The notes under the pieces were generated by a model. The model saw only the letters and a list, made by a program, of their open reading frames with translations, ran no database searches and was not told the DNA's origin. A stretch of 62,131 nucleotides of DNA, filler included, from Sluysia triapertura (taxonomy: Eukaryota), in the NCBI GenBank assembly GCA_046118255.1. It is 5 parts of 5 records of this genome, joined end to end, with 100 filler letters (N's around TTAATTAATTAA, not from the genome) between each part and the next. Parts side by side here need not be neighbours in the genome. Positions count along the whole stretch, not along the records: positions 1 to 12,266 come from JBJNIA010124412.1; positions 12,367 to 25,142 come from JBJNIA010082699.1; positions 25,243 to 37,566 come from JBJNIA010119306.1; 2 more parts are not named here. One strand, written 5' to 3'. Of the stretch, positions 8,260 through 36,142 are shown piece by piece. The position numbers and the translations under genes were made by a program. Position 1 is the first letter of the stretch; each line of letters opens with the position of its first letter.

Positions 8260-9369
8260 CTAAATTCGTGTTTCGCTCTCTAAATAAAAATAAAAGATTA
8301 TAATATCATTGATAAAAAGATAAAAATCATTTACTTCACGTTCATCCATACATAAAATGTTGTGGAACAAATTTCGAATTGGTAATCCAAGACTTCCGAG
8401 GATATTTTCAAGGATAGAGCAGTGATCGGAATAGGGCGTAACTTCGGTATTAAGAGTTGTTAATTGGTTGACCGTGTGTGCATATTGGCAATAGATGCCA
8501 GACTTGATACAAATGCCCTTTTGATCACTGTTGAATGGGTAGAATGCCTTTTTGATAAGTTGACTCGAATTTGGTGAGCTTAAAGCGTTTGCACATTTTT
8601 CTGACTGTATGGTGGTGTCTTGGAAATTATTATGATGTGAACTCCTCTCATTATTCTTGCCAATCACTTGCGTAGCTTAGTGATTTATATTCTACAGTAT
8701 AATCGTTTATATTCATCATAATATTAACTAAAACTGGGAATTGCATTTGTATGTTTTGAGAAAAAATGTCATCACCATCACTAATTATAATAGATTCCAT
8801 ATTCATTGATTCATCATCGACATTAAGAACTTCAAACGAATCAATAACGGTGTTGTTAGAATCTAAGTTAGCTAATTTTAATGCATCTGAATTAAACCAC
8901 ATATTTACTAAAGGTGATACTGAATATCGCTTAAAATGTAAATCTTCGATCGACTTTAACAATGCGCAAAATATTTCAACCATTTCAAGATCTCTTGGAA
9001 ATAAACTCTTAGGATAAAAACGATTCAAAAAATCGTATTATATTTTACTGATTCAATATAACGATTTAAAGTTAATTCATGGATAATGTGCCGAAACCAA
9101 ATTCTCACGTAATCAATATTTGTAACGGGATTACTAACATCGTACAGGTATTCAAAAAATTCTTTCGAAATTATGTCTTTTATAACTCTCCAAAATTCAT
9201 AATCAAAAACCAGCTTGGGCATATTAAACTTTAGGAATATAATAGATGTACAACTAATTTGATGATGGAGTATTGCTTCAACGACAGAACAGCAATTAAC
9301 TTCTTTCTACGTTAATTTAACTTGTTTAAATCTTTTCTAGTATTCTATAATTGACTTCTTTTTATTCAT
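8260..9369 (-). pseudogene. PLEKHM1-type RUN domain + CCCH zinc-finger chimeric gene (two TAG stops, two frameshifts)
   Basis: ATG at 9369 is in frame with ORF 9025-9222 through two TAG codons. RUN motifs: CSVVEAILHHQI, FWRVIK, VRIWFR, LNRFY....PRDLE...F..LLKSIEDLHF, followed by SPLVNMW...ALKLANL (PLEKHM1-like). C-terminal F(Y)PF..DQKGICIKSGIYCQYAHTVNQL is CCCH-like with the first Cys changed to Tyr. Confidence 0.75.
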
Positions 9370-9519
9370 TTAATTTAACTTTAATAAATTATCAATAAAA
9401 ATGATGAAACTGCCATTTTTATTTACGAATAATTAAATTGATTTTTATTCTCGTGTTACTAGCACTAAAAATAATGAAATATTGAGTCAACAAAAATTGG
9501 ATTATGTACATGTGTCTGG

Positions 9520-9674
9520 ACTGGCTGTCCAACCAGAGATATAAAAATAATGCAGAGATTCACTCTGGTTGGACAACCAGTAATAATATGAATTACTTTT
9601 ATGTTGTAAAATCACCAACTATCAACGGTGACAGGAATTAATAGATGGCAACATACAATGTCACCATTCATAGT
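9520..9674 (-). promoter_or_regulatory. Double stem-loop upstream element, copy A
   Basis: IR 9520-9538/9563-9581 (18/19 match, 24-nt spacer, ccaaccag core) and IR 9618-9633/9659-9674 (14/16, 25-nt spacer), ~150 nt upstream of the ATG at 9369. Promoter function is inferred. Confidence 0.6.
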
Positions 9675-9724
9675 GGCTATCATTGATTGAAAAATCAAAT
9701 TTAATTTAACATTGATAAAAATAA

Positions 9725-9790
<66 letters not shown>
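9725..9790. repeat. (AAT)n microsatellite
   Basis: Direct trinucleotide repeat. Similar tracts at ~22789-22850, 25070-25131, 44413-44456, 45303-45363, 49839-49909, 56941-56986 and 62064-62131. Confidence 0.95.
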
Positions 9791-9791
<1 letters not shown>

Positions 9792-12266
9792 TAATTCGAT
9801 AAAACAGAAATACAAATTAATTCTTAAATCCATTAAAATTAATAACTTTTTTATAAAAATTTCTTACATTAAAAATATATTTAAATTTAACAATATAATT
9901 ATGTTTTAATTAATTAATTATTTTAATTTTTATTTACGTTTAAGTAAATTGTTTTTTTTTAAATATTTTTTTTTAAAAAATAATACTCTTGAGAGTAATA
10001 CAGTGAGAGTTATTCATTTGTTTAGCAAACTAAATTTTCTAGTAAATTAATTAATTTAATTAAATTTAATTTGAAGAAAAATTATTATTATTTTTGTTTA
10101 ACTTACTTATAAACTTAAGTAACATAAATAAAGATTGTTTTTTTGTTAAATTTAATCTATAAAGAAAAAAAAACAAAAATAAATTTTAATGATTAATATT
10201 TAATAATCCAGACGTTGTACTGTATCATTTTGTGAAATATATTTTTTTTATCACGTAAACATGGATATAATTTTTTTGTCTTTCATCATTAATTAATTAA
10301 CTAAAAGAAAATTTGAAAAAGACAAACCTAAATATATGTATATTTATTTATTTATTTATTAAAATTTTTATTTACTTACAATAGTTAGTAATTAAAAATT
10401 TACAAAATTTTCTTAAATAATCCCATTTTTAATAGAATGTATTTAATCAATGAATATTTTATACTTATATTTGAATAATTCAAAATTATTTTTGATTAAT
10501 GTAAATAACAGTTTTGTAGAATCTCTTCAAGATAAGTTGTTCGTATGTTATGCTTGAATGATAATTTAATAAAGGTTTTTAGTTGTTGGCTACCAACCAA
10601 AAGTTATCTTGTTAGTAGACATGTAAACTGAAATTCGAATTTAAAATTATCGAACAAATTCGATTCTAAAGTATGTCATGGAAATGTCAACGTATTGCAA
10701 GAAAGTACGTGGAGAATAAAGCTTAAGATAAATAGATAGTGAGTTCACCAATGTGTTGGGCTTACTAACTGAATGGCCAACCGTTGGATTTTTTAACTTA
10801 AAAATGGAGGTTGAAAAGGCTATTCCTAGACTAGTCAATTTAATATTCTATTCAATAATCAATAATTAAACAATTATAAAGTTAAACTGATTCAAAAGGG
10901 TATTAATGTTCTGCTCTAAATATTTAATAATTTAACAATTAATATTTTAGGGGACAATTGATTTTATTATTGATTTTAAACGATTTAAAAAAATATAGCA
11001 ATGAAGATTTTGCTCTGGTTTGAATATACAAACCTTATGAATATTGATTTTACTTAGGTTCGGTATAAATGAATTTTATGAGAGTTTACTTAGGTTCTCT
11101 CAGGAACCTGATCAATTAATTTAAGATGAATGAACAAAATTAAATCGAAAATTTTATTACTACAATTTAACTTGAATAAATAAAAATTATATGTTACAAT
11201 GGGATAATAATAAAATGATATATAATTTGAAAAAGATTATTATTTTAATAATCTTAATAGAAATTTTAATAAAGATTTTACTCAGCTATCTATAAACGAT
11301 AGCTCTAATGATTAAAAATAAATTTTAAGTGTATTTTAGAAAATCAAGTTTAAAACTTGCAAGAACTTATAATATAGAAAACTAACGATACGAAGTAAGT
11401 GGTTCTGCAATTAATTGTTCTCAATAGAATGGATTATGTTTGATCGGAGTAATCTCTCGAAGCTTGAAGGTTGCGAACTGCTGTTAACAAAATGCTTGAT
11501 AAGTTGATTGAAAATGGTATTTGTTTTGCAAGTTATGAAAAGTTATGAGAATGTCAAAGAAAAGTCAAGCTATTTATACTTATTTGAAGGTTAAGTTTAT
11601 AAGATTAAAACAAAGTAATTTTAATAACAATAATTTTAATAATAATATTAATAATTTTAGTAATAATTTTAATAATAATTTTAATAATATAAATAATTTT
11701 AACATATAATAAAAATACAATGTTAATAATAAAACTTAGTAATAATTTTAATAATAATAATAATTTTAACAAATAATAAAATATAACAAACCTGGAAGAT
11801 GAACATTAATTTTATCATTAAATTTTTCCAATACTTAAAATTTAAAATAAATATTTAAATGACTAATTTTATAATTTTAATTGTTAATATAATATTTTAG
11901 TGATTATACTGAACTTTAATACTTTATAGAGATTTAGACTTTATATTTAATAGAGACATAGTTTACATTTAATATTAGTTTACATTTAATAGAGACTAGA
12001 AACTTAGACTTTACAAATAATAAAATCGTAATAATGATAAGGAATTTAGATCTAATAAGGGTCTAGCTTTAGTAAACTCTACCCTGTGATAATTATATTA
12101 TAATTGGTCTTACGCACCAACTAAAGTTTTTGATTTTAGATTTTAAAATGAATTTTATAAATCAGTCTTAATGACCAACCTTTAAAAAAATGATAGTTTA
12201 GGTATTATTTTATGACTTTTTGAAAGTTTAAAATCTTATTTACCAAGCTTACTAATTAATTTGTTG

Positions 12267-12366
12267 NNNNNNNNNNNNNNNNNNNNNNNNNNNNNNNNNN
12301 NNNNNNNNNNTTAATTAATTAANNNNNNNNNNNNNNNNNNNNNNNNNNNNNNNNNNNNNNNNNNNN
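12267..12366. other. Artificial contig linker N44-TTAATTAATTAA-N44
   Basis: Identical 100-nt spacer containing stops in all frames; recurs at 25143, 37567 and 49910. Confidence 0.97.
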
Positions 12367-13968
12367 TTAAGTTTAATATAAAGTGATAATATTAATTGAG
12401 AAGTTCAGAATATTTATAAATTCTATAAAGAGATTTGAATTAAAATAAAGGACAAGAGTTTTTTTAAGTATAAAACAGTATTCAGACATTTAAATTTGAT
12501 AAAGGTTTGATAAGATAAAATTAAAGAGATAACAATATTTTTAAGATTTGGAAGAGACCAAAATAAATTTTACATTATACTATACTTACACAATTTATTA
12601 CATTATTAATAGATATTACAGTATTTTGTTATTAAAGGGCATGATAGTATAATAAAGTATTCGAATCAGTAAAAACCCTATAATAATAGCAGGTTATATA
12701 TGGGGCAGTAAATCATTACCAGAACTGAAATTCTACTGAACAAAACAGAAAGGAAAACAAATATAGTTTAAAACAAATGAAAATGATTTATTAGACGAAT
12801 ACTTAGCGTATCTTTATTGGTGAAATAGTGAATGAAAATAAGAATTCAAACAAGTGATTATGAAATCATGAAGTATTTTATGAAGTACTTGATTTAATTA
12901 TTTTTAACTAAGGGAAAATATCAATTCTGATCTTAGATTTCTTATAATAGTCAGAAAATGTAAAGTTTTGACTCCACTATATTTTAATAATAACTTTAGT
13001 AATTTCGTGTAATCCTACTTATTATTTATGCTCAAATAAACTTATACTGTCTTATTTTATGCGTCAACTTTTGGGATAAATCCTTTCGAATTTCTTTTTA
13101 ATTTCTAATTCAAATTGTAGTAAGTTAAAATTAAATAACCTGAACACACTAAGGTTTTATGGGCAATTATAAATATTATTACACAGCGTTTTATCTCTAG
13201 TGATAATGATAATTTTATTTTAAAAATGAAATTATCACTTGCCTAAACCAGCGTAGAATTAAGAGATTTTAAGTAATTACGTTATTCCTCACGTAAATGA
13301 GGTTTAAAACTTATTAATCAAAAACTTATGTTTAATTGAAAAATATCTAATATGCCGGGAGCATGAATATTAAATAATTATTTGAAGCACTGAGATACCG
13401 AATGTGTGTAACTGTCTGCGAATAAAGTTATGTACAATTAATCTTAAATAAATTCCACAAAAAATTACTCCACGAAGTCGTTTTATGACATGCAATTATT
13501 AACTTTTCTTTACGAATATGAACTTTTTATACTAAGCTAGTTATAATATTCCATTACAAAATAATTAAAGATACATTAGTGAAAAACAAATATTTCAATT
13601 TAGAAACGTTAATTTCTTAGAATATTTCAATTCTTAGTCTATTAATTGATATTTAATTGATATATACATTAAAAATTGTACAATATCCATTAGTTAAATG
13701 GATTTTTTATTTATTACAATTATTACTTTTTATTATTTACAGATTAATTTTAATGTTTATTATATAAACGTAAAGGTACAATCTAACAAATGATTCCAAC
13801 AGTCTATTTTGTTTTACTTAGATAAATACACTTCGCGATAATTTTTAAGCTATTTTTTGAATCCCCACTGATGTTAATTTTATTTTGGCTTTGTCTAAAT
13901 TATTTTACGTAAATTATAAAAGGTGTTTTAATTTTATTTTAATTTATTTCGTTACATTATTATTATTA

Positions 13969-13999
<31 letters not shown>

Positions 14000-14005
14000 A
14001 TTTAG

Positions 14006-14329
14006 AATAGAGTTTTACATCGTCAGTTGGTGCTTTTCAACAAGGCTACAATTTCGTATTACAATGGTGATTTAAATAGTCCCGAGAAGTCTGACACTGA
14101 AAAATTATTGTTAAGTTTGACACTTTCCATGAAAAATGCGAATTTTAATCCTCCAACTTGGCTGGAGCAATATGCAATCAATGACACATTAAATCAAGAA
14201 TATGAAAATACTACTCATACGAATCGAAGTCATTCATTCAGTAATACACGTGACCTTAACAATTATAATGGTAATTATGTTTCAAAACAATCACCAGATC
14301 GAACAGTGCCACATTACTCACCACATTAA
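14006..14329 (+). CDS. Arfaptin-family protein, terminal exon
   Basis: Acceptor tttag| then NRVLHRQLVLFNKATISYYNG...PPTWLEQ..., matching the arfaptin C-terminus (KVMHKQLLLFHNA.SAYFAG...PSWLEEQ). Ends in TAA. Confidence 0.8.
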   Translation, partial: NRVLHRQLVLFNKATISYYNGDLNSPEKSDTEKLLLSLTLSMKNANFNPPTWLEQYAINDTLNQEYENTTHTNRSHSFSNTRDLNNYNGNYVSKQSPDRTVPHYSPH

Positions 14330-16617: not shown

Positions 16618-17343
16618 AATAAAGAAGTAAATTCATACCATCCTTTGCAAACCGCTGCCAGGTTAATAGCGACTTTGGGACCACCGGAAGCTCCATCTCA
16701 ACCAACTATTTCGTTCCATGTACGTTTTACAAAACACAGAAAATTAATAGTTCTATTGTCATGGAAACCAGCGGAATACGATCATATTGATGATTTAATA
16801 TACAGAATAGATATACGTAGTAGTGAGTTTGTTTATAGTGCCTGGAAAATTTGTGGATACACAGTAGATAATAGGTTTATTTTGGATCAAGACGCATTTG
16901 TTGAGTCAGATTTAAAGTCGATTTTGTCCGGATATTGTATTGCTCGAGTAATAGCGACAAATAAATACGGATGCAGTACTTACAGTGTCGCGTCCGGTAT
17001 TTTTCATGTAAACACATTTAATCATGATCGGAAATCAGAATTATCAAGTCAATATCTAGATCAATTAAAACCAATTATACCAGACTTGGCATGGACTGTA
17101 GCTAAATATAATCCTCGTCAAGCTCTATCAGAACGAGAACTACTTCAAGATCAATTAGATATTTCCAATTATGGATTATTTGAACAGGAAAATTTCGAAA
17201 GTAAAGTAAATACATTAACTGGTAAATTTAATATTGAAAATTCAATTAATCAATCCATAGAGAACTTTATAGAAAAACATTATTCACTAGAACATGCTTT
17301 TTTTCTCAACATCTAATTTGAAGTTGCTAAAGGAAAAAGCTGA
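16618..17343 (+). pseudogene. Ig-tail/FN3/kinase-start fragment of an obscurin/UNC-89/SPEG/Trio-type protein
   Basis: 223-aa ORF with FN3 hallmarks: PPEAPSQPTI, LSWKP, YRIDIR...WK, YCIARVIATNKYGCSTYS. The upstream NSYHPLQTAARL resembles the end of an Ig I-set domain. FIEKHYSL and a frameshifted FEVAKGK resemble the start of a kinase domain. No clear splice sites. Confidence 0.65.
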
Positions 17344-17511
17344 AAAGTCAACTAAATTCTCCTCTTTTCTTGTAGTAGCATCACCTAGTAATTTTTTATT
17401 AATAATAATTACTTACTTAACTTTTACCATTTTTTTTGCTACAATGAAAACTTCGTTATAATTTCCTATTGATTATCTAATTAATTACTTAATAATTATT
17501 TACTCTGATCT

Positions 17512-22852: not shown

Positions 22853-22869
22853 TTGTAGTGAATAGAATT

Positions 22870-23010: not shown

Positions 23011-24249
23011 ATTTAATAAGTACCACTAACGGGAACACATTGCTAAGTTTCGACAAGGAAACTGTTTTTGGAAAAGCAGTGATGAAATAGATAGACCAAC
23101 AAAGTGAATAAATTCCCAGTGGTAACAAGTGGTGCGATTTTGCAAAATTTAAACTTAAGCTCACAAATAAATAGTTTAAAGATGGTGAGTCCGCTACAAC
23201 ACTTGTCTTATGCACTTAAGGGCTAATTCGTAGGATTTTTAAATAAATATTAGCAGAAGGTGGTAGCTTACTCTATTATTCGATTGGATTTTTTATATTG
23301 GAAAACAAATTATATATCTGAGGCTTATCTAATTATTGGAGTTAATGTTGTATGGGTTTCAATTTATTTAGGGTTGCAATTTGTCGGTTTTGATTTTGTC
23401 AAACAATGAAGTTATTAATTTACGGATCCGTATTAAAAGGAAATAATTTACTACCGAACAAAAATCGGTTGAGAAATTTATGTTAAATTTACCTATTCGA
23501 ATTAAAAGATCCTACAAAGTAAATTCTTGTTCTTACTAATTATCTATTGATAGTTTCATTAGCAGTTAATTCAACTTCTTTCTTATAAATCCTAATTGTA
23601 ACGTCGCTCAGACTTAAATCGTTTAAATTAGGCGAGCTTTTCTGTAAGTGTAAGTGTAAGATTTCATAAGTAAAATACTTGCATTCTTATTATTTACGAC
23701 ATTATTATTATTATCGTTATCCAATATCCTACTGTCAGACACAAGAAACTACCTCGAATTTAGATTGCGTAACTTACTGAAAACACCTATTAATTGTAAT
23801 TTATGTAGAAATTTATTTGAAGGATTATTTAACATTCATAACAATACAAATTTAAAATCAACATAAACTCTACTTAAAATCTTTAATATTTTTGTAAATT
23901 TTTATACCGTATAAAATACTTTCTAAATTTCAACACTCAAATATTAATTAATAAATTAATATTTTTTAATAATTTAAATATCCTTATTCATAACTTCATA
24001 AATTGAATTAACATTATTTATTGAATAATATTACAAAATACATACTACTTATCACAATAACAAATTTGCTTAGTTACGCCCTAAGGATTTAATACACTCT
24101 TTTATCTACAAAGTTTTCGGTGTATAGTTGTTCATTTTAGTTTAGTGTATTTATAAACATTATATACTTTGTCTATTGAATTATTATTTTGTATATTTAC
24201 TTCTTATAAATTACTTTAATAAATTTTTGTGTTGATAGTTTATTACTTC

Positions 24250-25060
24250 AATACAATTCCGTAGAACTGTATTTGGCTGAAATGTCAATACGTAGCAGAC
24301 AGCATCAAATTGGTTCTTGAGATAACTTTGACCTCACAAATGAGGCATGCGGTTGTCTAGAATCAAAAGTTAATTAAGACAAAATAAAGGTCACCATTTA
24401 GTCCGGCTAATCTCAGATTGCTTATGAATTAGAGTTGAAGTTTCGTGTTAGCAAACAAAAAAAATTAACTGATTTAACTCAAATCAGTAAAGTAAAAATG
24501 TTGGATACGAGAGTTCAACATTAACTGAATAAAAAACGCAAACAAAAGCGTTTGGAAGCTTTCTTGATGGTGCTTTCATCAAAAAAGCTAATGATTAGTG
24601 TTTGGTCATGTAGCGTAAGTGTTACCCATTATGATTTCATGAAATCTGACTCATAACAAAAATATAGAGCAACAAACTGGACAAGATGATGCAAAAATTT
24701 AAAGAAAAACAACCTATATTGGTAAACAAATAGACTCTTTTGTTAATGCACAAACGACTGACAAATCTAAAGGAATTGGAATTGTAACTTCATCATTCTC
24801 TATACTCACCAAACCTATCCCCAGTGACACCTACCAATTATTCCACAAGAGAAAAACAATTTAATTCCCAGAATGCTGTAAAACTGGCCTTCCAGGAATT
24901 CATTGACTCTTGTCTGTAAGGGCTTTTTATACCACTGGCCTAGACAAACTGCCACTTAAATGGCAAGTGTACAGATAATATGGGTGCACAATTTGATGAA
25001 TGAAACAAAACCTTCTATTTATAAGATATCCATCAACTTTGCTTTTTTTATACAAATTTC
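24250..25060 (+). mobile_element. Decayed mariner (DD34D) transposon
   Basis: Frame-broken VW....V.HYDFMKS, HHSLYSPNLSPSD.Y.LF, AFQEFIDS, FYTTGLDKLPLKWQ.C...MGAQFDE. Confidence 0.8.
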
Positions 25061-25067
25061 ATCCTTG

Positions 25068-25132
<65 letters not shown>

Positions 25133-25142
25133 TATTAATTTA

Positions 25143-25242
25143 NNNNNNNNNNNNNNNNNNNNNNNNNNNNNNNNNNNNNNNNNNNNTTAATTAATTAANN
25201 NNNNNNNNNNNNNNNNNNNNNNNNNNNNNNNNNNNNNNNNNN
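25143..25242. other. Artificial contig linker
   Basis: N44-TTAATTAATTAA-N44. Confidence 0.97.
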
Positions 25243-25332
25243 TTATTATTATTATTATTGGTTTTATTAGTATTTTGTTATAATTATTTTACCACTAATT
25301 TTGTCATAAAATCATCATTGTCAATTGTATCT

Positions 25333-25498
25333 GTCACTAGTTGATGGATTTAAATGAGAAAACTACAATTCACCACTACGAGTGTCAACTAGTGGCCGTT
25401 TCTGTGCGCAGATGTTCAATAAGAATTATTGTCAGTTAAGTGGACATCCAATCAGTTCTGTCATACAAATTACTTCTGTTCTCCTGATTGGATGCCCA
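25333..25498 (+). promoter_or_regulatory. Double stem-loop upstream element, copy B
   Basis: IR cactagttga/tcaactagtg (25335-25344/25385-25394) and IR tggacatccaatcag/ctgattggatgccca (25441-25455/25484-25498, 14/15), ~168 nt before the ATG at 25666. Confidence 0.6.
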
Positions 25499-25665
25499 AT
25501 GGTTGTAATTCACTGTGGCTGTTACTAAAAGTAAACACTAAAGAGAACAAAAACTTAATCAACACAAAAAATTGTTACTAATACAGAATCAGAAACAAGA
25601 ATTTTTAATTTTTATAAAACAAATTATAAAATTTCAATTTAGTTCTTGATATCTATATTATTATA

Positions 25666-26528
25666 ATGACTGATAATTTCTGGCGATCTTTTATTTATTT
25701 AGAATGGTTATTAGATAAACATAATATCTTGAACAATCGTCAGAGCGATAATGATGAATTAAGTAATAAAGATAAATGTCAAGAAATAAGTATTTCTTTC
25801 AATGACGATAATTTCGTATTTGGTGAACGATTTAGTTTTCTACAACAAATTATATCTGAAGCGAAGACTTATTTTACAAATTCTCAAGCATTGTGTTTGA
25901 TATGGTGCAATGATCCATGGATATTAGTATTTGCAACATTAATCTTGGTATCTAAAATTAATGAATCTAACTTAATTCCCCAAAAGATAATTAGACAAAC
26001 TTGTAAAAATGTTGAAAGTCAAGTTGAATATCTTCATATACAAGACTTCGATCAATCCATGTCAAGTAAAAGATCCACTATTATCGATGACAAATCTAAT
26101 TTAAACATAATCGGAAATCCTTTAAAAAATGATCAAATTATTAATGAAGAAACTACTGAATACACGTAATGCTGAGGACAAAACTACCTTTTTCATTAAT
26201 TCTACAATTTGTCTTAAAATATTTAGAACTGAGTTATGTTTTAGAAGATTATCGTTTAGCTTTGCTGATGAAAACAATTGAATTTGGAAAAATCATTATA
26301 AATTTTCCTCAAATAAAGATTCCCCATCATATTGTCGAACATCATATAGATATGATCAATATTGCAGAAAATCTATACAATGCCCCTTCCAGGCCGAAAA
26401 GTCAGGGAATTGTATCAAATTCGGATTGTCATGTAAATATTTTCATTCAATTAGTCATGTTAGCAATAATATATCTGTATTACAAGAACATGTCCAACGC
26501 ATTTAAAATCTGGTACAACCCATCCTGA
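25666..26528 (+). pseudogene. Diverged cyclin C copy (frameshift at ~26169)
   Basis: MTDNFWRSFIYLEWLLDKHNIL..RQSD...LS aligns by eye to cyclin C MAGNFWQSSHYLQWILDKQDLL..RQKD...LS. GERFSFLQQIISEAKTYF matches GEHLKLRQQVIATATVYF; DPWILVFATLILVSKINE matches DPVLMAPTCVFLASKVEE; LPFSLILQFV matches HPYRPLLQYV. Confidence 0.82.
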
Positions 26529-27269
26529 ACTTCGGAAAAATCAGTTTTCAAAAATAACAGAGCACTCCAAGGAACATGAAAGCAATACTCAGTTATCTCT
26601 GTGTTATACAACAATAAAAATAAAGTAATCATAATTTTCAATAATCAATTAATACTTAATATTTGTTTTTTGTGTAATTTCAGGAACCTGCAACCAATGA
26701 AATTGACAATGTGTCCTTGGATAGATTTACCGGACAATAATAGCAACCACCATTTAATCCATAACTGTTTCAATTTTATAAGTGATTGTATTAAATATAT
26801 TACAATATCTATGTATTTTTATTTTGTAATTTTAAATTCAAATACTAAAATTAAACTAATAAAGTTTTTAATACCAACTCTGAAATTTACTATTCATAAC
26901 GATGATGTAAAATCTTATACTATTAATACTACAAATTTAACCAAATCATATTGCCCCTTACAGTATAAATAAGCAGAAATAAAACAGCTACAACTTCTAT
27001 CATTAACCTACTACGATTCGAGCATAACCATCGATCAATTTGATAAATCAAAGAACGTTTATTAGCTGTGAAACATATGTGGACTAGCTGGTTATTGAAA
27101 CATTTTATCAATCATAAATTAATTGTGTAAAACAATTACGTATTTTGTAGTTTCTGTCCGAACATAAAATAAATTTACTTAAATTTATTATAATTAATTG
27201 TAATGTTATTAATTCATTGTATAAATTAGTTTTATGAATAAATTTTGATATATTATATTAATTATTAAA

Positions 27270-27870
27270 GGACTTGGGATCAAAATTAGAGTAACCAGAG
27301 AAAGAGATGTAAACAAATTAAAGACTTTCTTTTTACTCTTTTACGACAGATCAAGTAGCTGATAGTTAAAAGTGGATAACTATTTATAATTGTGATTCAT
27401 TTGAAATTTTAAAATACATAAAAGGAAATTCTATTTCGAATAACTGAGACGAATATTCGAGTTCACACTTCCAAATATGGCAAATATAATAGACAAAGTA
27501 TAGATATTTCTTAGCCAGTTAATAAAAGAAAATTTATATTAATAAAAGATGGTAACTCTTATCAAATTCGAGTAGTAATATAAAGTGAGAATATTATTAG
27601 AAAAGTTAAATTGTAAAGATATTTAGACTATTACCAAAGACTAAGAGTTCATATTAGTGAAAGTTAAGAGTTTATTGAAAGGATTTCTAAAAGATTATAC
27701 TTCTAGTTAAATTTAATACAAGATTAATAATAGAGAAATTTAGAACATAATTAAAGAGTAAGAATCAATAAAGAAATTTAGATTATTAATAAAGAATAAG
27801 AGTTCATTCCAAGAATACACAAAGTCTATAAAATATAAACAGCATTCAAAGATAATCAGTTTTATCAAGA
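27270..27870 (+). repeat. Degenerate LTR-retrotransposon pol-like repeat (homologous segment at ~60150-60265)
   Basis: gtaatataaagtgagaatattattagaaa...tttagactattaccaaagactaagagttcat recurs nearly verbatim at 60200-60262. The pol assignment is weak. Confidence 0.45.
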
Positions 27871-28885
27871 AAAACAAAAAATTAATTTTTTAAATTTTTA
27901 CAATAATATAATGATAATAGTAATAATAATGATAATAATAATAGTAACAATAATAATGATAATAGCAATTTAATCCTTTTGTCATATAACTTAATCTTTT
28001 TAGAAATTAATTAGAATATTGTAATCAATAAAATAAAAAAACTCCATAATAAGCGAACATTCATACTTTTTAATAAATTTACAATAAAAATATATATTTA
28101 AAAGGGCTCATTGTCAATTTCTCTGATATTCGCGCATAAATCTAAAATATGAGTTACTCATATCCAAACTTGATTGTACTATTTTCAATATTAATTGATC
28201 TTCTGTATGACAATACTTCTTCAATTGGATTGTAAGTTGTGGAGAATGCGATGGAATAAATTTTATCTCATGATTATTCTTGACACATATCAGATGCAAG
28301 ATGTGATTTATGTATAGGTGTATTATCCATAAATTATTTTCCTCCAGATTAATAATAAGACTCAGCAAAAAAATTTATACTCATCACTATTATAATTGCT
28401 ACACCATCTTCATATCCTTTTATCATTTCTAGTCTAATTTCATTCACTATTTTTATTCGGCATTTTTTTGTTAAAAAAGATTCAATAAATTTATTAATTG
28501 TTTTAATATAATGCTTAAATTATATGACAAAATGATTAAATTATTTGACAAAATATATTAAATTATTCGAAAAACACAATAATGATAATAATAGTGATAG
28601 TGATATAGTGATAATAATAATGATAATGGTGATAATAATAATAATGATAATAATAATAATACTTTTATTTCTCTGTGCTTTACGTAAATATCTTCAGAAT
28701 TTTGATCTATTTTATACTTTGTATATAAATAAATTTTTAAGTTTAGATTTAATAATAATAGTTAATAAATATTATTATAGTTTAACAATTTTGAAAGAGG
28801 ACTGAATGCTGAAATAAAGTAGACCGAATGCTGACTCAAAGTCAGTTCAAGAAATAATCATCCAATCATTTCATTATAAACTAAC

Positions 28886-29136
28886 ATCAAGACACTGATT
28901 AGCCAATTGAGTTTCATTGAACATTCTGGCTTGTGACAGCAACATAAATGCATTATCGGGAGATAAATGTAATCTCAGGAATTCAACACAAGCCTTCTCC
29001 AAAGTGGGAACAGCGTACTTCTTGGCAGTGTACAGTGTGGTCATAACTATATCAGGTCCCAGATGTATTTGATCGGTGTAGATGAATTTCAAAAGACATA
29101 AGAACGAAATAGGATCAACATCAGTTATTGAAATTT
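28886..29136 (-). CDS. BTB/POZ-BACK protein BTBD1/BTBD2-like, internal exon
   Basis: 251-nt exon (atttag| ... GAT|gttagt) encoding [97 protein letters not shown] and DNAFMLL.QAR are characteristic of BTBD1/2. Confidence 0.92.
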
Positions 29137-29814
29137 CTAAATAAAATTATTATCAAATATTTCTTATAAACTATAAATACGAAAGAACACTGAACGACGC
29201 ATGACAAACCCACTTAGCAAAGTAGAAAATAGAGCCACGGATAGATGGCCATAGTGAAAGATATTAACAATTTATGAGCAGCAATGTCATTATGATACAT
29301 GGAGGAGGGGTTCACAAAGGACCGGGGAAAGGAAACACTGGAAATAAATGGATAATTTTTAAATTATCTCCATTAAATAAATTTTAAATTTTCTATAGAT
29401 AAAAGATAAAATGAAGTAATTACATTTTAAAATAAAATCATTTAAGCACACAACTTTTATAAGTGCATTATTTAACACAGTTGTAACTAAAGAAATTGAA
29501 CTAACTCCATCTTCAATAATCTCTTTATAGTATTTATTGAACAAATTTGAATTTTATTATTTTATTATATTATAATATTATAATAATGATCATATTATTA
29601 CAGTAAAAATGAATTAGAAAGAGAAAATGTTCTCTTTTCCTAGTATAAATAAATACTAGTTTCTCATAATTTTTCACAAAATTAGATTATTAATTTTAAA
29701 TACTTAAAATTTAGTACCAATTCATATATCTTCATATATCCAATACAACTAAAAATATTCCAATTAAAAGTGTGTTCATTACCATTATTATTATTATTTA
29801 AATATTTGAATTTC

Positions 29815-30650
29815 AACCCAAAAATTCGTTCCCGGATCTATGGAGGCGTGTGATGACTTCCCGGCTACGCACAAAAATACGTCGATGTGGATTCGAAAGC
29901 TTCCTCCATACGCCAGTTTCCCTGAGAAAAGTATGGAGTGAAGTTTTCCTGCTCAAAACGACTTTTTCTAAAAGTGGTATGGTTTCATGTTCCTCGTTCT
30001 CCTCCCAATCGTTCCTGGTATCGTTTTCTGCCATGGTATCCTCTTCGTCCAAGACTATTGTTCTAACCAACTCTGTTCTTTGGATCCTGGCTTCTCCTCT
30101 GTCTCTCACCTCTGCTCTGCTGTTGCCGAGCTTCACGCACGGGGTCTGTATCCAGCTAGACCATTGCTTCGTATGTATCCTGCATACCGTGCTCGAGAAG
30201 TGAATGCAGATAACCTGGCTGTTCCTGGACGGGGTTTTACTTGCGTGGTCGATTCTTATCAATTGCTGGTGCTACAAGACCACAAGCTCTCCGCACCTGC
30301 TCGCCAGTGTTTCGCATGGGGTCCTGTTCCTGCATCCTTTCATGAGTATGAAGATTTCCGTGCTCAAGATGTGCTCGCTGTTGACCTTGGTGTTCCAGCT
30401 TATTTATTTTATTTATTTAAAATCTTTGGGCATCCAAGTTCCCCTAAAACCAAATTGGTACCACGGCGCTCATCGAACCTTAAACAGATTCCACAATGGC
30501 GTTCCCTCCGACCAACCAACGGCGTCTCAATGGTCGTTGGCGTACTCCCACATAAACCTGCTCGGACTATCACTATCATTGATAAACCTAAACCTTTAAA
30601 CTTTTTCATCAGCGTCCCCAATGACCTCCTGACTAATCCTGTCCCTTCCA
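29815..30650. other. GC-rich island with long ORFs on both strands, product unknown
   Basis: Visibly much more GC-rich than the flanks. Contains a 261-aa + ORF (29987-30772) and an in-register - ORF (29813-30262). Confidence 0.5.
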
Positions 30651-31082
30651 ACTTTCCTCAACTTACATTTCTTTATACTCTTGATTTTTATTCTGAAATT
30701 TTTATAATTAAATGTTTTGTTGTAAATAATAAATTATTCGATAAAGTAAAGGTCCTTAAGACCCATTTTTAAGACCCATTTAATCCTTAAGACCCTAACC
30801 CTAACAATTGAGTAATTTTGTAATAAAATTACTAAAAAATTTTATTTCATTAACTTGTAAACAAATTTATATGCATAAACATTGTTTTAACTTTAATAAA
30901 AAAAATACCTTTTAACACAACTATTTCAACTTTATACATTAAACTTTAAAACTTAATTTTGCTAATAATAGTCCTCTAGAATAATTAAAGAACCAAATTA
31001 ACGTTTCCAGAAAATATCGCTGATTCTGTACCTTAATACGTCAAATCTTCCAATCACAATTCTTACACAGAGAACGACTTAG

Positions 31083-31467
31083 TGTAACGACACGAAATTC
31101 TGAATTAATCTTACTATTTCATATAAAAAATCGATTCTACGATTCGGTAGTAAACTTAATTTTTCACAAGATCCTTAAAATATTAATATATAAACTCGCT
31201 TAGTATAAGCGGAAAACTAATTCTTAAATAGCATTATCAATTAGATTGACATATTATGTTCCTTGGAATTCAAGCATAATTATAGATACTATAATTAACA
31301 GTTATTAATTCTCTACATTCTCTAACTATTGACAAATAAGAGAAAGAATTATCTTTATTTAATTCTTTTCAAATTGTAAAACCTACATTGACTTACTTAA
31401 ACTTTTCTTCAAATCATACGATCTAGCCCTTCAGTGTATAAGCCTAGGATCGAAGGTGGACTCACAC
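31083..31467 (+). mobile_element. Solo-LTR-like repeat
   Basis: Starts tgtaacga and ends tacgatctagcccttcagtgtataagcctaggatcgaaggtggactcacac. The same terminal motif is at 40500-40550 and a related one (minus strand) at ~51415-51455, just upstream of the gypsy PBS. Confidence 0.55.
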
Positions 31468-31969
31468 TATATTTTTATTTATAGCTTATTTATAACAGTT
31501 TGAAAGGGTTTTGTAGTTATACGCTAAGAGTATGTAAAATGAGTATGTTCTACAGGTGTGTGTGGGTATTTGTACAAACGATAACCTTTTAAATACTTTA
31601 ACTAGAATAATTCAAATAACTTTTGTAAAACATTAACTACTTTTGAAATAATTTCAAACTTCATTTTAACCGACTTTATTTATCTCATTAAGCCATTTTA
31701 TTAAAATTCAAGTTAAAGTTCTTTTTTTAAGTATTATTTTATTGTTTTGTTTATTTTTAATTGATAAGTTTTTGTTGTGCCTAGCAAGAAAAAATGATAT
31801 TTCGCTAGTTAATTTCATCAAGGCTCGATGAGAGAAAATTTTGAGGTATCATTTGATGTTACGCGCTTGTTTATTCATCATTTTATAATTATTATAATTA
31901 TTATAATAATTACGATTATAATTATAATTATTATTATATTCTAATAATAATAGAATCATATTCTAAATA

Positions 31970-32645
31970 ATGATTCTATTGGCAGATTTACGCTGTATGT
32001 TTTCTTTGTTCTTTGAATTTGGTAAATCGAATCTCAAGGTTTATACAAAAACAAAAGAATAAGCATTATACTGTTGCTTAGACAATCAGTGACACAACAC
32101 TTCGTCAGTTAAGCATGAGACGCGAATCATTTTCCATAATGAACTTTTTGAATACCAGTTATTTCATATTAAATTAACTCTGAAATTGTTAGATAATTTT
32201 CTAAACATGATTACATTCGATTGAAAGTAAACCCTTTATTCAATGTTCCATTAATTAGCTATACCGTCAGAAAGACCAGCAACAAGATTGAAGAATTGGG
32301 TGGTATGTAATTTTTGTTTCATCCAGCTGTAGTACAATCCTTGTTCTATCTGACCGGGGTCTCCTTACAGACGATCACCGACTTGAATCATTCGATGAAG
32401 TTGAAGCCTGTCAAGAATTTTTCAATTAAAAGTTGGAGTGATATTTCGACCAAATTCGAAAGCATCCAGAAAGTGGTCGACGATGATGGTCTTTATTTTG
32501 AAGTAATCGATAAAAGAATAATCAAAAACGAGTCTACCTACGATCCTAGTCCACAGAATAGAAATGTTAAAAGTCGATTTACTCAGGTTACCAATTAAGG
32601 AACGGTCACTTAACAAAGGTTGAAGTATATTCCAACAGGGGTGTG
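31970..32645 (+). mobile_element. Possible Ty3/gypsy integrase C-terminus/chromodomain remnant
   Basis: FHPAVVQSLFYLTG and DDDGLYFEVIDKRI resemble integrase C-terminal and chromodomain-start motifs; purine-rich aacagggg|tg follows. Weak. Confidence 0.35.
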
Positions 32646-34232
32646 TCGAATCTCTTTCCTCTTTTTAGTGAATTTAATGAGATTTTAAAACTGTGTATGT
32701 GCTTGTTAATATTCCGCTTTTCCGCGAGATTATTAGTTTGATTTTATTGAGGTTCCATATAAATAGAACCTATGAGGAGTAATTTATCGAACTTAGTATT
32801 TTGAGTGACTCTGTATTAGTAAAGATTTTAGGTATAAATTAATTCGATATAATTTAATATAATTTACTTTTGATCCAATTATATGAAATTTTACTTAAAA
32901 TTCATAAATATTACATAAAATTCAACAAATATTAAGTATTATAATTTAGAAAATCAGTATTAATTTTACCTTATAGCAATAATGATCACGAATAATAACA
33001 TTAATAATGAGTTTACTAAGATTATTAACTGAAATGTAATAATCTTGTTAATGAAAATTTAGTCAAGATTTTTTAATTAACCAAATTAAATAATTCAAAA
33101 ATTTTACAGAAGTTTTTTTAGTCAATTTTAAAGTTGTCGTAGACCTATATACAAAAACTAACAAAACTTCAAATTCCAAAATGAATCAATTGAAAAGACC
33201 TGTCTAGGTATGACAGATTAATTTAAAGATTTTCACAATCGGTGGAATGACATAGGTTCGAAGATCAATAGTTGAAGATATACTATTCAAAATCAATGTT
33301 TGAAAAACAATTAAATTATTAGTTATTATTTATACACTAGTTTTACGATAATATGATGCACTTTGTGTAGTGGCCAACACTCATAATTTAAAATCTATCA
33401 AAATACACCAACACAAACACTATAAGCAACACTCCATATATATAACATTCCATCAACTTACACATTAACAATTCAACTAACGCTTTTAACCATCCATACT
33501 ACAACAAACTCCGACATTTAATCTCGAATAAGATATTTTTACAAACAAACCACAATCACGATATAAAATACACAAACCATAAACATAATAACACCATTCA
33601 ATAACGTTAAGAAGCACCTCAGAAATATAAATCGTTTACATTAAACTCTGTAACCAACTCCAGCAAGCTAAATCTACTTCATATACACATATTCATCATC
33701 AACAATCACTCCTATTAACATAATATATTAAGATTTATTTTGTAATTGTCTGTTAAAACTAAAATAACTTTTACCTTTCATTAAACATCTCAAACCATTA
33801 TGTTCAATGCATAAATCATGTTTTCAATTATAAATCTTCAAGAAATTTCAAGAAATTATTCTAACATTCTTCATTCCACTTACAACTTAAACCATTACTT
33901 CTTTCAAAACAAATAAGATAACTTTAAAGATTTCATTATCATACTGTGAAGCAACAACTACAAATGATACATTATATACTTAGTTACTGTTGTTCCTTCA
34001 CAGTATAACATTTGTTTTGATCCTTTTATTTCATTTATAAGTTAGAACGTTTAAGAATTATAAAGAAAAAAGATCTTGTGTTCAGTACAATTAAAAGATT
34101 TATGCGGTTTTAATTTTTAACAGTAATAATAATAACAGTAACTTTATTGTTCTTATTATTATTACTGTATTATTGTTGTACTTTTCAATCATTTAATTGT
34201 TAATCATTTTTGGCTAAATTAATTACTGTTAC

Positions 34233-34378
34233 CATCAGTACTGATCACATTATTTAAAAACGTCATTAGAATGTCATTACTGATGACGGTTGTCAATCTA
34301 TAATGCACAAATAATAATCACTCACAACCCAATCAGAGTACATATTTCTTACCATTCTCTCAAATACTCTGATTGGGT
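34233..34378 (+). promoter_or_regulatory. Double stem-loop upstream element, copy C
   Basis: IR catcagtactga/tcattactgatg (34233-34244/34274-34285, 11/12) and perfect 14-bp IR acccaatcagagta/tactctgattgggt (34327-34340/34365-34378, 24-nt spacer), ~123 nt before the ATG at 34502. Confidence 0.6.
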
Positions 34379-34501
34379 ATACTAAAAATAGTGTGAAGCT
34401 GAAAACAAAAATAATAAAATTCACTATTTTTCAAAAATTTTTACCAGTGTCATTTTTGTTGGTGTGAATAACAAAATTGCTAAATCGGATAACTTAAAAA
34501 G

Positions 34502-36142
34502 ATGTATTCAAATAATTACTATCATTGTTCAATTGATGTTGATGGAATTAAGGATTTACATTTATTTGATAAAGTATGTTTTGATTTAGGCGATGTTTTA
34601 GAAAAAGATTATTTTCGTTCACGGATTTCAAAAAACGGTAAGGAATTAAATTGGTTAATAAATTTTAAACTTGTTTTGAAACAAACAAAAAACATGAAAA
34701 CGAATCCATCTAAATTTGTAATAAAACATTATCATCAAAATTCAACGATTGATTTAATGAATAATAATCCAGATGAATCAATTTATGTCTTACAGATTGT
34801 AATGTTTAACCCAGATATAAGTCTAGAAGCAAATGAAAAGTTTAAGTTAAATATAGATGCTCTAAGAAAATATGTTACTGTCTACAGAACATACATGAAT
34901 CTCTTTCATAAAATAGAATATGATGATTTAGTTAAAGCTTTCACAAAATAGACTGGTCTAGTTAATAAAAATGTATTACCAGTACTAGATAACTACTCAC
35001 GATTAGCTAACTGGTTAAAAGATAAAATGAAGATTCTACGATCAACAAACTGCAATGGGTTTGTCAATGAAGATCCCTTCAGGATTAACAAAATGCATCT
35101 TATGTCTATTGACCTAAAATTATTAAAAATCACGACATCACGAGAAAGCAATCATGACGAAATTCATGAAAGTACAAGAAGTTCAGTGTTTATTGGCGAA
35201 AGGATAAAAACCTTCATGAATTATAAAAGCGATAAAGAAAAGTCAACTACATTTTGTAGCCATCACGATGATCAAATACTCTCTACAAACCATGATTGTC
35301 AATGCAAATTGCTATACCATGGGTCATTTCTGATTAATCCTGCTATGTTAGGTGATTTTTGTGACTTAATGTTATTAAGTAAAATTATAACTTCAATCAT
35401 TGAATTTGCCGACGTATTTTACATTATACTTGATTTTGTTAGTTTTAAGTTTATATTTTTATATGATTGTCATTTAGATAATAAGCAATTCAATCGGATC
35501 CCGGAAATGCAACAAGAAGAACAAGGGAAAAGCGAGATCAGAAGTCAACAAATAAAGAATATGATTAAGATGTTTTTTAGAATTTAATTTAGTATACAAA
35601 ATTTTAGTTATTTAATAAAATATCGCAATTATTGTTTTGTATTTGTAATTTATTTTTTCCAGAATAAGTTATTGAATTCATCTCAAAATAAAATATATAA
35701 GTTTGAGCCAAGTTTTACTATACTTACGAAAGCATTTTACGATAACAACGAAATTAACAAACTTTATAAAACTTTTAAAATAAATAAGCTTAAGCAATTA
35801 ACGAAACTCGATAGAGTACTGACAATCTTTTATTTAATCTTACATATGACCATAAGTGTGCTGCACAGACATTCACTTATTGATGAAACTCAAATCTATC
35901 TAACAAGTTTATTAATTAAAATTACATCTTCAAAATTAAGTATAAAATTAAAATCAAACGTTAGTAACAAGCCCTTAATGCAAACCAAGATTTTAAATTT
36001 TTATATTGAATTGTCTAAATTACCTTCAAAACATTTCATTAAATATTATCTAACATCATATGCCATACCACCCTCCATAGTAAATACAAATTTATTGTTT
36101 ATTTTAAGTTATATCAATGATTTTATTTTTCGAATATCTTAA
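34502..36142 (+). pseudogene. Highly diverged retinoblastoma-family (p107/p130-like) gene
   Basis: 34502-35587 is one frame with a single TAG at 34949-34951; a probable short intron ends at ttccag| 35662. By-eye matches to the RbN region: FDKVCFDL ~ FEELCSRL; GKELNWL ~ GNDLHWL; VTVYRTYMNLFHKI ~ AVIFKKYEPIFQDI; LLYHGSFLINPAMLGDFCDLMLLSKIITSIIEF ~ IFHFCWVLFIYAKGNF...DDLVNSYHLLLCALDL. Confidence 0.5.

What the first reader, a model, noticed from the sequence alone, without database searches (positions are those of the whole stretch)
8260..36142. Candidate gene-capturing element family: one double-stem-loop/CCAAT promoter drives three unrelated diverged host regulators
Seen in sequence: three loci (A 9369-9790 minus, B 25243-25666 plus, C ~34150-34502 plus) share one layout. 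It runs (TTA)n-rich tract, IR1 (10-16-bp arms, 25-40-nt loop), 36/44/41 nt, IR2 (14-19-bp arms centred on CCAA(T/C)CAG...CTG(A/G)TTGG, 24-28-nt loop), 123-168 nt, then ATG. Family knowledge: the cargoes are unrelated host proteins (PLEKHM1-like RUN + CCCH finger, cyclin C, probable Rb/p107-p130), each diverged along its whole length and with few or no introns. B and C flank a BTBD1/2 exon on the opposite strand, and A lies 5' of internal PFK exons, so all three probably sit inside host introns. Inference: three hits in ~62 kb of arbitrary contigs implies a high-copy family of mobile modules that capture and re-express cell-cycle/trafficking regulators. They could be accessory-gene modules of a giant retroelement (I recall planarian giant gypsy 'Burro' elements being reported to carry captured host genes; unverified) or of an endogenous virus.
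Basis: partly seen in the sequence, partly recalled or inferred. Interest (0 to 1): 0.88.

Follow-up and report, generated by a model that had tools for sequence, protein, structure and literature searches.

The report
Mobile cassettes capturing host gene pieces
An AT-rich animal genome holds repeated short cassettes in which one shared hairpin-bearing end is joined to different pieces of host regulatory genes, likely an undescribed gene-capturing mobile element, although the three copies seen here are broken and whether any copy is expressed is untested.

Summary
The layout is real. Three loci in five joined ~12-kb contigs share a (TTA)n tract, a weak palindrome (IR1), a strong palindrome (IR2, core CCAAYCAG…CTGRTTGG; 3 matches, 0 in 100 shuffles) and an ATG 125-174 nt later. 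Cargo calls change. B is the N-terminal cyclin box of cyclin C (E 1e-12). C starts with a FERM/Band 4.1-like lobe (E 0.005-0.018); Rb is unconfirmed. A's RUN domain is unconfirmed. Contigs of the one run holding this DNA show B and C are multi-copy (depth about 15-150 times that of unique flanks) and include diverged second copies. C's IR2 loop is far deeper still. All three cargo frames carry stops or frameshifts, and no RNA run was listed. No LTR, TIR or Helitron end was found, and B's 3' flank is unique DNA, so a giant-retroelement or virus setting is not supported here. Best reading: a non-autonomous, cargo-swapping mobile family, most likely moved by a TAA-tailed LINE through RNA antisense to the cargo.

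The parts
9727..9789 (-). A: (TTA)21 tract on the cargo strand (reads (TAA)n on the other strand)
9614..9677 (-). A: IR1, imperfect palindrome, 25-nt loop, right arm starts TGTCA at 9633
9520..9581 (-). A: IR2, 19-bp arms, core CCAACCAG/CTGGTTGG
8654..9369 (-). A: cargo from ATG 9369, broken by stops and two frameshifts; RUN-like (PLEKHM1/SNX29 type) by recalled resemblance only
   Evidence: translation; no Pfam, PDB, fold or Atlas support
8467..8532 (-). A: Unkempt-type CCCH finger (first cysteine replaced), in the same frame as ATG 9369
   Evidence: Pfam zf-CCCH_UNK E 1.9e-6 to 5.2e-6, below the gathering score; frame
8280..8334 (-). A: candidate 55-nt GT-AG intron 3' of the finger; AATAAA at 8234
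   Evidence: by sequence only
25243..25257 (+). B: (TTA)5 at the contig start (tract cut by the assembly break)
25333..25396 (+). B: IR1, 10 perfect pairs plus G-T pairs, right arm starts TGTCA at 25383
25441..25498 (+). B: IR2, 15-bp arms, core CCAATCAG/CTGATTGG
25666..26169 (+). B: cargo ORF; residues 1-131 align without a break to cyclin C residues 1-131, then unrelated sequence
   Evidence: PDB cyclin C E 1.4e-12, 12 of 12 hits cyclin C
26369..26452 (+). B: Unkempt-type CCCH finger, out of frame with the cyclin ORF and behind a stop
   Evidence: Pfam zf-CCCH_UNK E 8.8e-5; 37% over 27 aa to A's finger, E 0.005; A+B profile's best PDB hit is Unkempt 5elh, E 0.003
26625..26683 (+). B: candidate 59-nt GT-AG intron 3' of the finger; AATAAA at 26858; unique DNA from about 26800-26900 on
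28874..29146 (-). host BTB-domain internal exon (BTBD1/2-like by recall), near single-copy depth; serves as control
   Evidence: Pfam BTB E 3.4e-11; bin depth 29
33400..34135 (+). separate very high-copy repeat ending in a hairpin (33941-34006) and (TAA)4, tail to tail with C; LINE-like 3' end by inference
   Evidence: depth up to 141,653; 9 of 15 listed differences silent in one + frame against 1-4 in the other five; hairpin; no Pfam hit
34153..34164 (+). C: (TTA)4 within an AT-rich tract
34232..34289 (+). C: IR1, imperfect, right arm starts TGTCA at 34272
   Evidence: not above shuffles
34327..34378 (+). C: IR2, 14 perfect pairs; depth about 7,100 in the loop against about 480 just upstream
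   Evidence: table 4
34502..35587 (+). C: cargo frame with one internal stop; residues 5-82 resemble the FERM N-lobe of Band 4.1/FARP1; the rest is unassigned
   Evidence: top six PDB hits all FERM, E 0.005-0.018; two searches gave nothing significant
35592..35662 (+). C: candidate 71-nt GT-AG intron (a second candidate at 35414-35477)
   Evidence: another copy starts to align exactly at 35663 (record 7)
35663..36142 (+). C: last ORF (159 aa), the only open frame there; differences between copies are silent; Rb pocket-A-like or LINE ORF2-end-like by recall, unresolved
   Evidence: 5 of 5 listed differences synonymous, chance about 0.002; no hit

Best explanation
These loci are broken copies of a repeated cassette family, likely a non-autonomous mobile element whose chassis (TTA tract, IR1, IR2, a cargo slot, an Unkempt-type CCCH finger and a small 3' intron) took up 5' pieces of different host mRNAs and was likely copied by a TAA-tailed LINE through an RNA running opposite to the cargo. 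Shown: the shared 5' end in three copies, the shared finger in two, cyclin C cargo in B, and many further copies of B and C in the same run. Inferred step 1, capture: a host mRNA 5' part (intron-free, start codon kept, 3' end lost) replaced the front of a chassis ORF by template switching, giving a host-domain/RNA-binding-finger fusion. Inferred step 2, spread: read on the other strand each unit ends IR2-IR1-(TAA)n, like a stringent LINE/SINE 3' end, so a LINE reverse transcriptase would copy it in trans, and introns on the cargo strand would survive. Inferred step 3, use: the inverted CCAAT boxes of IR2 would drive the cargo strand, and the truncated host domains would act as decoys while source copies were intact. 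Daughter copies such as these three then decay.
For: IR2 is beyond chance. It stays palindromic while its letters change: 4 pairs swapped on both sides, 45 of 57 cells paired; 3 of 3 copies extend the palindrome outward against 8 of 120 background core matches. TTA tract has the same polarity and spacing in 3 of 3. Shared Unkempt-type finger behind different cargos. Cyclin C residues 1-131 lie in one uninterrupted ORF. Multi-copy: B bins 279-456 and C bins 236-2,639 against 11-19 for exact unique contigs; differences carried by 7-20 distinct contigs; an 86-89% copy covers B's IRs plus the start of the cyclin ORF (25272-25789) and an 87% copy covers 35663-36060. C's IR2 loop is about 15 times deeper than its flanks, so that end is shared by more loci than the cargo is. 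No LTR, TIR, direct repeat or Helitron hairpin-CTRR at the ends. A very high-copy repeat ending in hairpin plus (TAA)n exists in this genome. Stem-loop 3' ends and TAA/TGTAA tails of stringent LINEs: PMC3747384, passages.
Against: No target-site duplication, empty site or partner element was found. The cassette ends share no sequence with the neighbouring LINE-like end. Neither hairpin folds consistently better on one strand, and all swapped pairs are Watson-Crick, which fits a DNA palindrome as well as an RNA stem. Covariation on three sequences is not significant (50 and 90 of 500 shuffles reach it). Depth does not fall smoothly away from the TTA end: IR1 of C is low, and depth rises again near 35900. 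(TAA)n tracts are common here (29 tracts). No finger was detected in C. The introns are predicted by eye in AT-rich DNA. Depth is summed over contigs at 80% likeness from one run that is probably the source sample, and the tool warns that it is not a copy number. All three cargos are broken, and 0 of 5 listed differences in C's first frame are silent.
Confidence: 0.4

Rival explanations
1. Same cassette family, but moved as DNA by a rolling-circle (Helentron/HINE- or Helitron-type) transposase; IR1 and IR2 would be subterminal single-strand hairpins and the TTA tract an internal microsatellite or target.
For: Palindromes without strand bias; no target-site duplication; introns would be kept. 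DINE-1/HINE elements have 12-15-bp subTIRs, a nearby short IR, a microsatellite and T-rich targets, and subTIRs can stay nearly identical between families under 70% alike (PMC4067079, passages). Bat Helitrons spread captured promoters (PMC4778049, passages).
Against: The defining partner subTIR at the far end and the 3' hairpin were not found in any of 3 copies; no hairpin-CTRR end. No Rep/helicase among the ORFs scanned.
Confidence: 0.22
2. A host multigene family, not a transposon: an Unkempt-finger gene with a CCAAT promoter repeatedly fused with retrocopied host exons and expanded by ordinary duplication, with most paralogues now pseudogenes.
For: Gene-like anatomy (ATG, candidate small introns, AATAAA); purifying selection on C's last ORF (5 of 5 silent); no transposon ends found.
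Against: Copies sit singly, apparently inside introns of unrelated genes, with unique flanks; three appear in 62 kb; a long self-complementary arm and a polar TTA tract are not needed for a promoter.
Confidence: 0.15
3. Cassettes are accessory units or deletion products of a larger LTR element or endogenous virus.
For: LTR template switching yields 3'-truncated, sometimes chimeric retrocopies that can be copied again (PMC5131818, passages); Burro elements carry extra host-like domains and accessory ORFs (PMC6431247, passages). A gag fragment lies in another contig of the window.
Against: No flanking repeat pair; B and C are separated by a near-single-copy host exon; no relatives in IMG/VR. Burro's extra domains are described mostly inside the gag-pol polyprotein.
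Confidence: 0.13
4. IR2 is a small independent foldback repeat (MITE-like) that happens to lie upstream of unrelated processed-pseudogene families.
For: IR2 is much deeper than its flanks; the same CCAATCAG core sits at the centre of long MITE-like palindromes in other organisms (L121, L125).
Against: 3 of 3 IR2s are followed by an ATG and a long frame at 125-174 nt; two end in the same finger; another copy carries IRs and cyclin ORF together (record 1).
Confidence: 0.1

Closest known systems
Stringent-type SINE/LINE pairs with 3' stem-loop and TAA/TGTAA tails (I, L2 clades; PMC3747384, passages)
   Same: Stem-loops next to a short tandem-repeat tract at one end; no terminal repeats; high copy number.
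   Different: Carries a 1-2 kb protein-coding cassette facing the other way; loops are 24-40 nt; no sequence shared with a LINE end was found; no tRNA-derived head was looked for.
Helentron non-autonomous elements (DINE-1/HINE; PMC4067079) and promoter-carrying bat Helitrons (HelibatN3; PMC4778049)
   Same: Short conserved palindromic signals in otherwise unalignable families, a microsatellite, gene capture, no TSD seen.
   Different: No partner subTIR or 3' hairpin/CTRR found; the cargo looks mRNA-derived and sits in a fixed slot before a shared finger.
LTR-mediated retrocopies, maize Bs1 type (PMC5131818)
   Same: Partial, 3'-truncated, intron-free host sequence joined to element sequence and amplified again.
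   Different: No LTR pair or LTR-element sequence flanks the cargo.
Pack-MULEs / Pack-TIRs (PMC8277862)
   Same: Non-autonomous multicopy units carrying host gene pieces.
   Different: No TIRs enclosing the cargo; animal Pack-TIRs are mostly single-copy with small (median 224 bp) genomic inserts.
Planarian Burro giant gypsy elements (PMC6431247)
   Same: Host-like regulatory domains in a repeat family of an AT-rich animal.
   Different: Units here are about 1.6-2.5 kb, dispersed, with no gag/pol/env or LTR beside them; the organism here is unknown.
Unkempt (UNK) CCCH zinc fingers
   Same: The finger of A and B matches Pfam zf-CCCH_UNK and PDB 5elh residues 96-125.
   Different: One finger rather than six, below the Pfam gathering score, placed behind unrelated domains; A lacks the first cysteine.

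Membership tests
LINE-mobilised retroposon (stringent SINE-like) | short tandem-repeat tail at the 3' end of the RNA strand | tested here: met
   (TAA)n on the anti-cargo strand next to IR1 in 3 of 3; such tracts are common in this DNA
LINE-mobilised retroposon (stringent SINE-like) | 3' stem-loop formed on the RNA strand | tested here: inconclusive
   hairpins present, no consistent strand preference
LINE-mobilised retroposon (stringent SINE-like) | 3' end shared with a partner LINE | tested here: inconclusive
   no similarity to the one LINE-like end in the window; the genome is not held
LINE-mobilised retroposon (stringent SINE-like) | target-site duplication and variable 5' truncation | tested here: inconclusive
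   no direct repeat of 9 nt or more with 3 or more G/C; AT-only or decayed TSDs would be missed; depth profile mixed
Helentron/HINE | 12-15-bp subTIR near each end, enclosing the element | tested here: not met
   longest inverted match between the two ends 10 nt (A), 11 nt (B), none (C), none involving IR2; old copies may have lost it
Helentron/HINE | short 3' palindrome; T-rich target; no TSD | tested here: inconclusive
   boundaries not defined; no empty sites available
Canonical Helitron | hairpin about 11 nt before a terminal CTRR | tested here: not met
   none at either end of 3 copies
LTR retroelement / Burro accessory unit | flanking long terminal repeats | tested here: not met
   no direct repeats around any cargo
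LTR retroelement / Burro accessory unit | gag/pol in the same element | tested here: inconclusive
   none among the pieces scanned beside these copies; other copies cannot be read
Pack-MULE / Pack-TIR | TIRs enclosing the captured DNA, with TSD | tested here: not met
Penelope-like / Terminon | hammerhead ribozyme at the 3' end | tested here: not met
   no Rfam match at E <= 1 in the window
Cyclin C (cargo B) | N-terminal cyclin box homology | tested here: met
   E 1.4e-12 over 131 residues; second cyclin box absent
FERM/Band 4.1 (cargo C) | FERM N-lobe homology | tested here: inconclusive
   top six PDB hits all FERM, E 0.005-0.018; no Pfam FERM hit; likely but weak
Rb/p107/p130 (cargo C) | RbN or pocket A homology | tested here: inconclusive
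   no hit by Pfam, PDB, fold or Atlas; models were low confidence (pLDDT 45); resemblance by recall only
RUN domain, PLEKHM1/SNX29 type (cargo A) | RUN domain homology | tested here: inconclusive
   domain split by a frameshift; no hit; Atlas gave weak ankyrin-like/unnamed rows; resemblance by recall only
Unkempt-type CCCH finger | C-x9-C-x6-C-x3-H spacing and similarity to UNK | tested here: met
   B has all four ligands, A three; Pfam E 1.9e-6 and 8.8e-5, PDB 5elh E 0.003
Active promoter cassette | capped transcripts starting after IR2 | not testable with these tools
   no RNA holder listed

The most novel reading that the evidence does not exclude
A categorically new kind of animal mobile element that works as a natural expression vector: one chassis with a palindromic CCAAT promoter and a C-terminal Unkempt RNA-binding finger has swapped in dozens to hundreds of different host regulatory domains (cyclin C, FERM, possibly Rb and RUN), each subfamily amplified tens of times, the fusions serving as decoys or RNA-tethered effectors that relieve host repression of the element (CycC/CDK8 and Rb repress telomeric retrotransposons in Drosophila; PMC11698117, abstract only).
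Probability: 0.22. Interest if true: 0.92.

Novelty: new variant of a known kind. Interest (0 to 1): 0.68.

Why it matters
Gene capture by animal transposons is known but described as rare, mostly single-copy and fragmentary. Here three of three copies met at random carry different host-derived coding pieces in the same slot, two of them before the same RNA-binding finger, and the two tested cargos are each amplified. If that holds genome-wide, this lineage has run systematic domain shuffling through one mobile chassis. It would be a source of truncated cell-cycle and cytoskeletal regulators or of antisense/small RNAs against their host genes, and a direct test case for whether elements keep captured regulators to escape host control. 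It would also mislead gene annotation of this genome with many false paralogues.

Tried and rejected
No RNA holder listed; this says nothing about expression. JGI metagenome scan with TTA+IR2 pattern: 6 stretches, none with this layout; L121/L125 are long MITE-like palindromes with the same core. HMMER against 1.84 billion representatives with the A+B finger profile gave 1 hit, a fish coiled-coil repeat protein, rejected as spurious. Six window ORFs are not in the protein collection by exact match. Rfam: nothing at E <= 1, so no hammerhead, snRNA or known miRNA family. Single-sequence AlphaFold models of A's first piece and C's last ORF had pLDDT 45; fold searches gave nothing usable. ESM Atlas: no usable hit for C's last ORF, weak ankyrin-like rows for A; C's first ORF did not complete. 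A degenerate finger in C near 35240-35320 was suspected by eye but not detected. A fourth CCAATCAG at 7555 lies in a transposase-like fragment and is not palindromic. The bacterial promoter scan is irrelevant to an animal. A whole-contig six-frame Pfam scan was not run (exceeded the print limit), so 'no transposase or RT nearby' rests on 17 ORFs, 18 repeat frames and a crude motif scan. Earlier findings of this scan: nothing in 6 look-ups. Literature: 9 searches listed no paper describing this layout; subscription journals are mostly not covered and no supplements were read.

Full report
Setting. The window is five contigs of about 12 kb joined by N-spacers, about 24% GC with many (TAA)n tracts. 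A conserved BTB exon and PFK-like exons with long introns point to an AT-rich animal; which one is unknown. No whole genome is held. One public run, X1, holds the DNA (77% of sampled words) and is probably the source sample, so it is not independent, but it shows the rest of the genome in pieces.

The observation. IR2 is real and far beyond chance. The pattern CCAAYCAG N24-36 CTGRTTGG occurs 3 times in the window and never in 100 shuffles. In an unbiased scan for inverted repeats with 18-48-nt loops, 4 score 22 or more: the three IR2s and one hairpin in a neighbouring repeat; 6 of 6 shuffles gave none. Across the three copies four arm positions change on both sides and stay paired. With three sequences that is not significant by the tool's shuffle (50 of 500), but among 120 background matches to the core only 8 keep a paired core and two more outer pairs, against 3 of 3 here. 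IR1 is weaker: above my cut-off only in B, not clearly above shuffles in folding, but its right arm begins TGTCA 57-65 nt before the IR2 core in all three. The TTA tract is on the cargo strand 154-190 nt before the core in all three, a placement that about 1% of positions have; B's tract is also a contig end. ATGs follow at 159, 174 and 125 nt. Outside these signals the three upstream regions do not align.

The cargo. B's ORF aligns without a break to cyclin C residues 1-131 (E 1.4e-12) and then loses similarity; the second cyclin box is missing. That ordinary animal cyclin C genes have introns in this stretch is recalled, so an mRNA origin is inferred. C's first 82 residues match the FERM N-lobe of Band 4.1 and FARP1 (top six PDB hits, E 0.005-0.018). 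No Rb protein was hit by any piece of C; by eye the middle of C and its last ORF recall Rb N-domain and pocket-A motifs, and the last ORF recalls the end of a LINE ORF2 about as well, so this stays open. A looks RUN-like by recall, but the domain is split by a frameshift and no tool confirmed it. New here: A and B both end in the same kind of CCCH finger (37% over 27 residues), which matches Pfam zf-CCCH_UNK (E 1.9e-6 and 8.8e-5) and, as a two-sequence profile, Unkempt in the PDB (5elh, E 0.003, best of 4 hits). In A the finger is in the frame of the start codon. No finger was detected in C. Each copy has a candidate 55-71-nt GT-AG intron 3' of the main frame, and A and B have an AATAAA soon after; these are predictions in AT-rich DNA. 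All three cargo frames hold stops or frameshifts.

Copy number. I laid X1's contigs on contig 3 at 80% likeness (A could not be tested). Five exact, unique contigs have depth 11-19 and the quietest bins 21-29. The four bins over B have 279-456 and the four over C's cargo 236-2,639. Single differences inside the cassettes are carried by 6-20 distinct contigs. One 504-nt contig is a second copy of B covering both IRs and the start of the cyclin ORF (54 other letters, 18 gaps); a 511-nt contig is a second copy of C's last ORF (53 other letters) and starts to align exactly at the predicted splice acceptor. Depth in C's IR2 loop is about 7,100 against about 480 just upstream. The tool warns that summed depth is no copy number, so I read this only as: B and C each have roughly tens of relatives, and IR2-like ends are commoner than either cargo. 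B's 3' flank is unique from about 26,800-26,900. Of 1,017 difference rows only the 40 best supported were shown. Among them, 5 of 5 in C's last ORF are silent (chance about 0.002), 0 of 5 in C's first frame are, and 9 of 15 in the repeat upstream of C are silent in one frame. So C's last ORF was under purifying selection between copies; whether it is an exon of the cassette or a separate LINE fragment is not settled.

What surrounds the copies. B and C lie on either side of a near-single-copy BTB exon on the other strand, so they are separate insertions and not parts of one giant element. Just upstream of C is a different, very high-copy repeat (depth up to 141,653) that ends in a hairpin and (TAA)4, tail to tail with C; it looks like a LINE 3' end (inference; no Pfam hit). 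Tc1-like and pogo-like fragments lie beyond B and A (the pogo label is recalled). No LTR pair, TIR pair, GC-bearing direct repeat or hairpin-CTRR end was found around any copy, and no Rfam family matches.

How it most likely works. The shared 5' signals and the shared 3' finger around different host domains are best explained by one chassis with a cargo slot. Capture was likely from mRNA, by template switching: start codon kept, no introns, 3' end replaced by chassis sequence. For spread I favour a LINE acting in trans on an RNA antisense to the cargo (0.4): that strand ends IR2-IR1-(TAA)n like stringent LINE and SINE ends (PMC3747384, passages), it would explain why cargo-strand introns survive, and the genome has an abundant hairpin-plus-TAA-tailed repeat. 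Against this, the hairpins show no strand preference, no partner or TSD was found, and depth does not fall evenly from the TTA end. A rolling-circle DNA element is the main rival (0.22): DINE-1/HINE elements have short palindromic signals, microsatellites and no TSD (PMC4067079, passages), but their far-end subTIR and 3' hairpin were not found. An expanded host gene family (0.15), an LTR or giant-element origin (0.13; PMC5131818 and PMC6431247, passages) and an independent MITE (0.10) are less likely. That IR2 is a promoter rests on its CCAAT boxes resembling NF-Y sites (recalled) and on its position; A's copy reads CCAAC. Expression is untested. A decoy role for the truncated domains is a hypothesis; CycC/CDK8 and Rbf1 restrain telomeric retrotransposons in Drosophila (PMC11698117, abstract and outline only).

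Comparison and novelty. It works like Pack-MULE/Pack-TIR, Helitron and LTR-mediated gene capture (PMC8277862, PMC4778049, PMC5131818, passages) but fails the terminal-structure test of each. Nine literature searches listed no description of this layout, and no relative of the finger module or of the layout was found in the protein, viral or metagenome collections; several of those searches are insensitive. I file it as a new variant of gene-capturing non-autonomous elements, with about a one-in-five chance that it is a new kind: a cargo-swapping vector with many captured regulators fused to an RNA-binding finger.

Verdict. Observation largely confirmed, cargo names partly corrected, family status supported by further copies in the same run, mechanism inferred and expression untested. 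Interest 0.68.

Noticed in passing
window 33400-34135 (+): Very high-copy repeat (depth up to about 140,000, thousands of times unique DNA) with silent-site bias in one frame, a 3' hairpin and a (TAA)n end; probably the 3' end of a dominant LINE family and a candidate mobilising partner.
   Followed up: partly
window 35663-36142 (+): 159-aa ORF with no database hit whose listed differences between copies are all silent; Rb pocket-A-like or LINE-end-like.
   Followed up: partly
window 36140-36470: Another high-copy repeat (depth about 12,000 at 36188) with a long nearly open frame on the minus strand; unidentified.
   Followed up: partly
window 23185-23235, 31414-31479, 40497-40561: A short GC-rich repeat family in three different contigs (80-82% alike); no Rfam match.
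   Followed up: no
window 6532-6760 and 49231-49570: Repeat family 78% alike with a tRNA-like or Penelope-end-like tail; partly duplicated in tandem at 49231 and 49469.
   Followed up: no
window 27436-27652 and 60061-60262: Shared repeat (75% alike; depth about 8,000 at 27609).
   Followed up: no
window 28150-28500 (-) and 7450-8040 (-): Decayed Tc1-like (Pfam DDE_3, E 0.007) and pogo-like (recalled) transposase fragments 3' of B and A.
   Followed up: partly
window 29813-30772: Unusually GC-rich, near-single-copy stretch in the presumed BTB-gene intron with overlapping open frames on both strands (266 aa on +, 152 aa on -) and no family hit.
   Followed up: partly
window 50608-51102 (-): Retrotransposon gag fragment (Pfam E 5e-6) in contig 5, with no cassette nearby.
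   Followed up: no
window 16618-17316 (+): Intact 232-aa single-exon-looking ORF without Pfam hit.
   Followed up: no
L121:1470-1665 and L125: Long MITE-like palindromes from another organism whose centre carries the same CCAATCAG/CTGATTGG core with a 28-nt loop.
   Followed up: partly
L007, L035: AT-rich large-virus contigs with the same core inside a 17-22-bp palindrome, apparently within coding DNA; no TTA tract or cargo layout.
   Followed up: no
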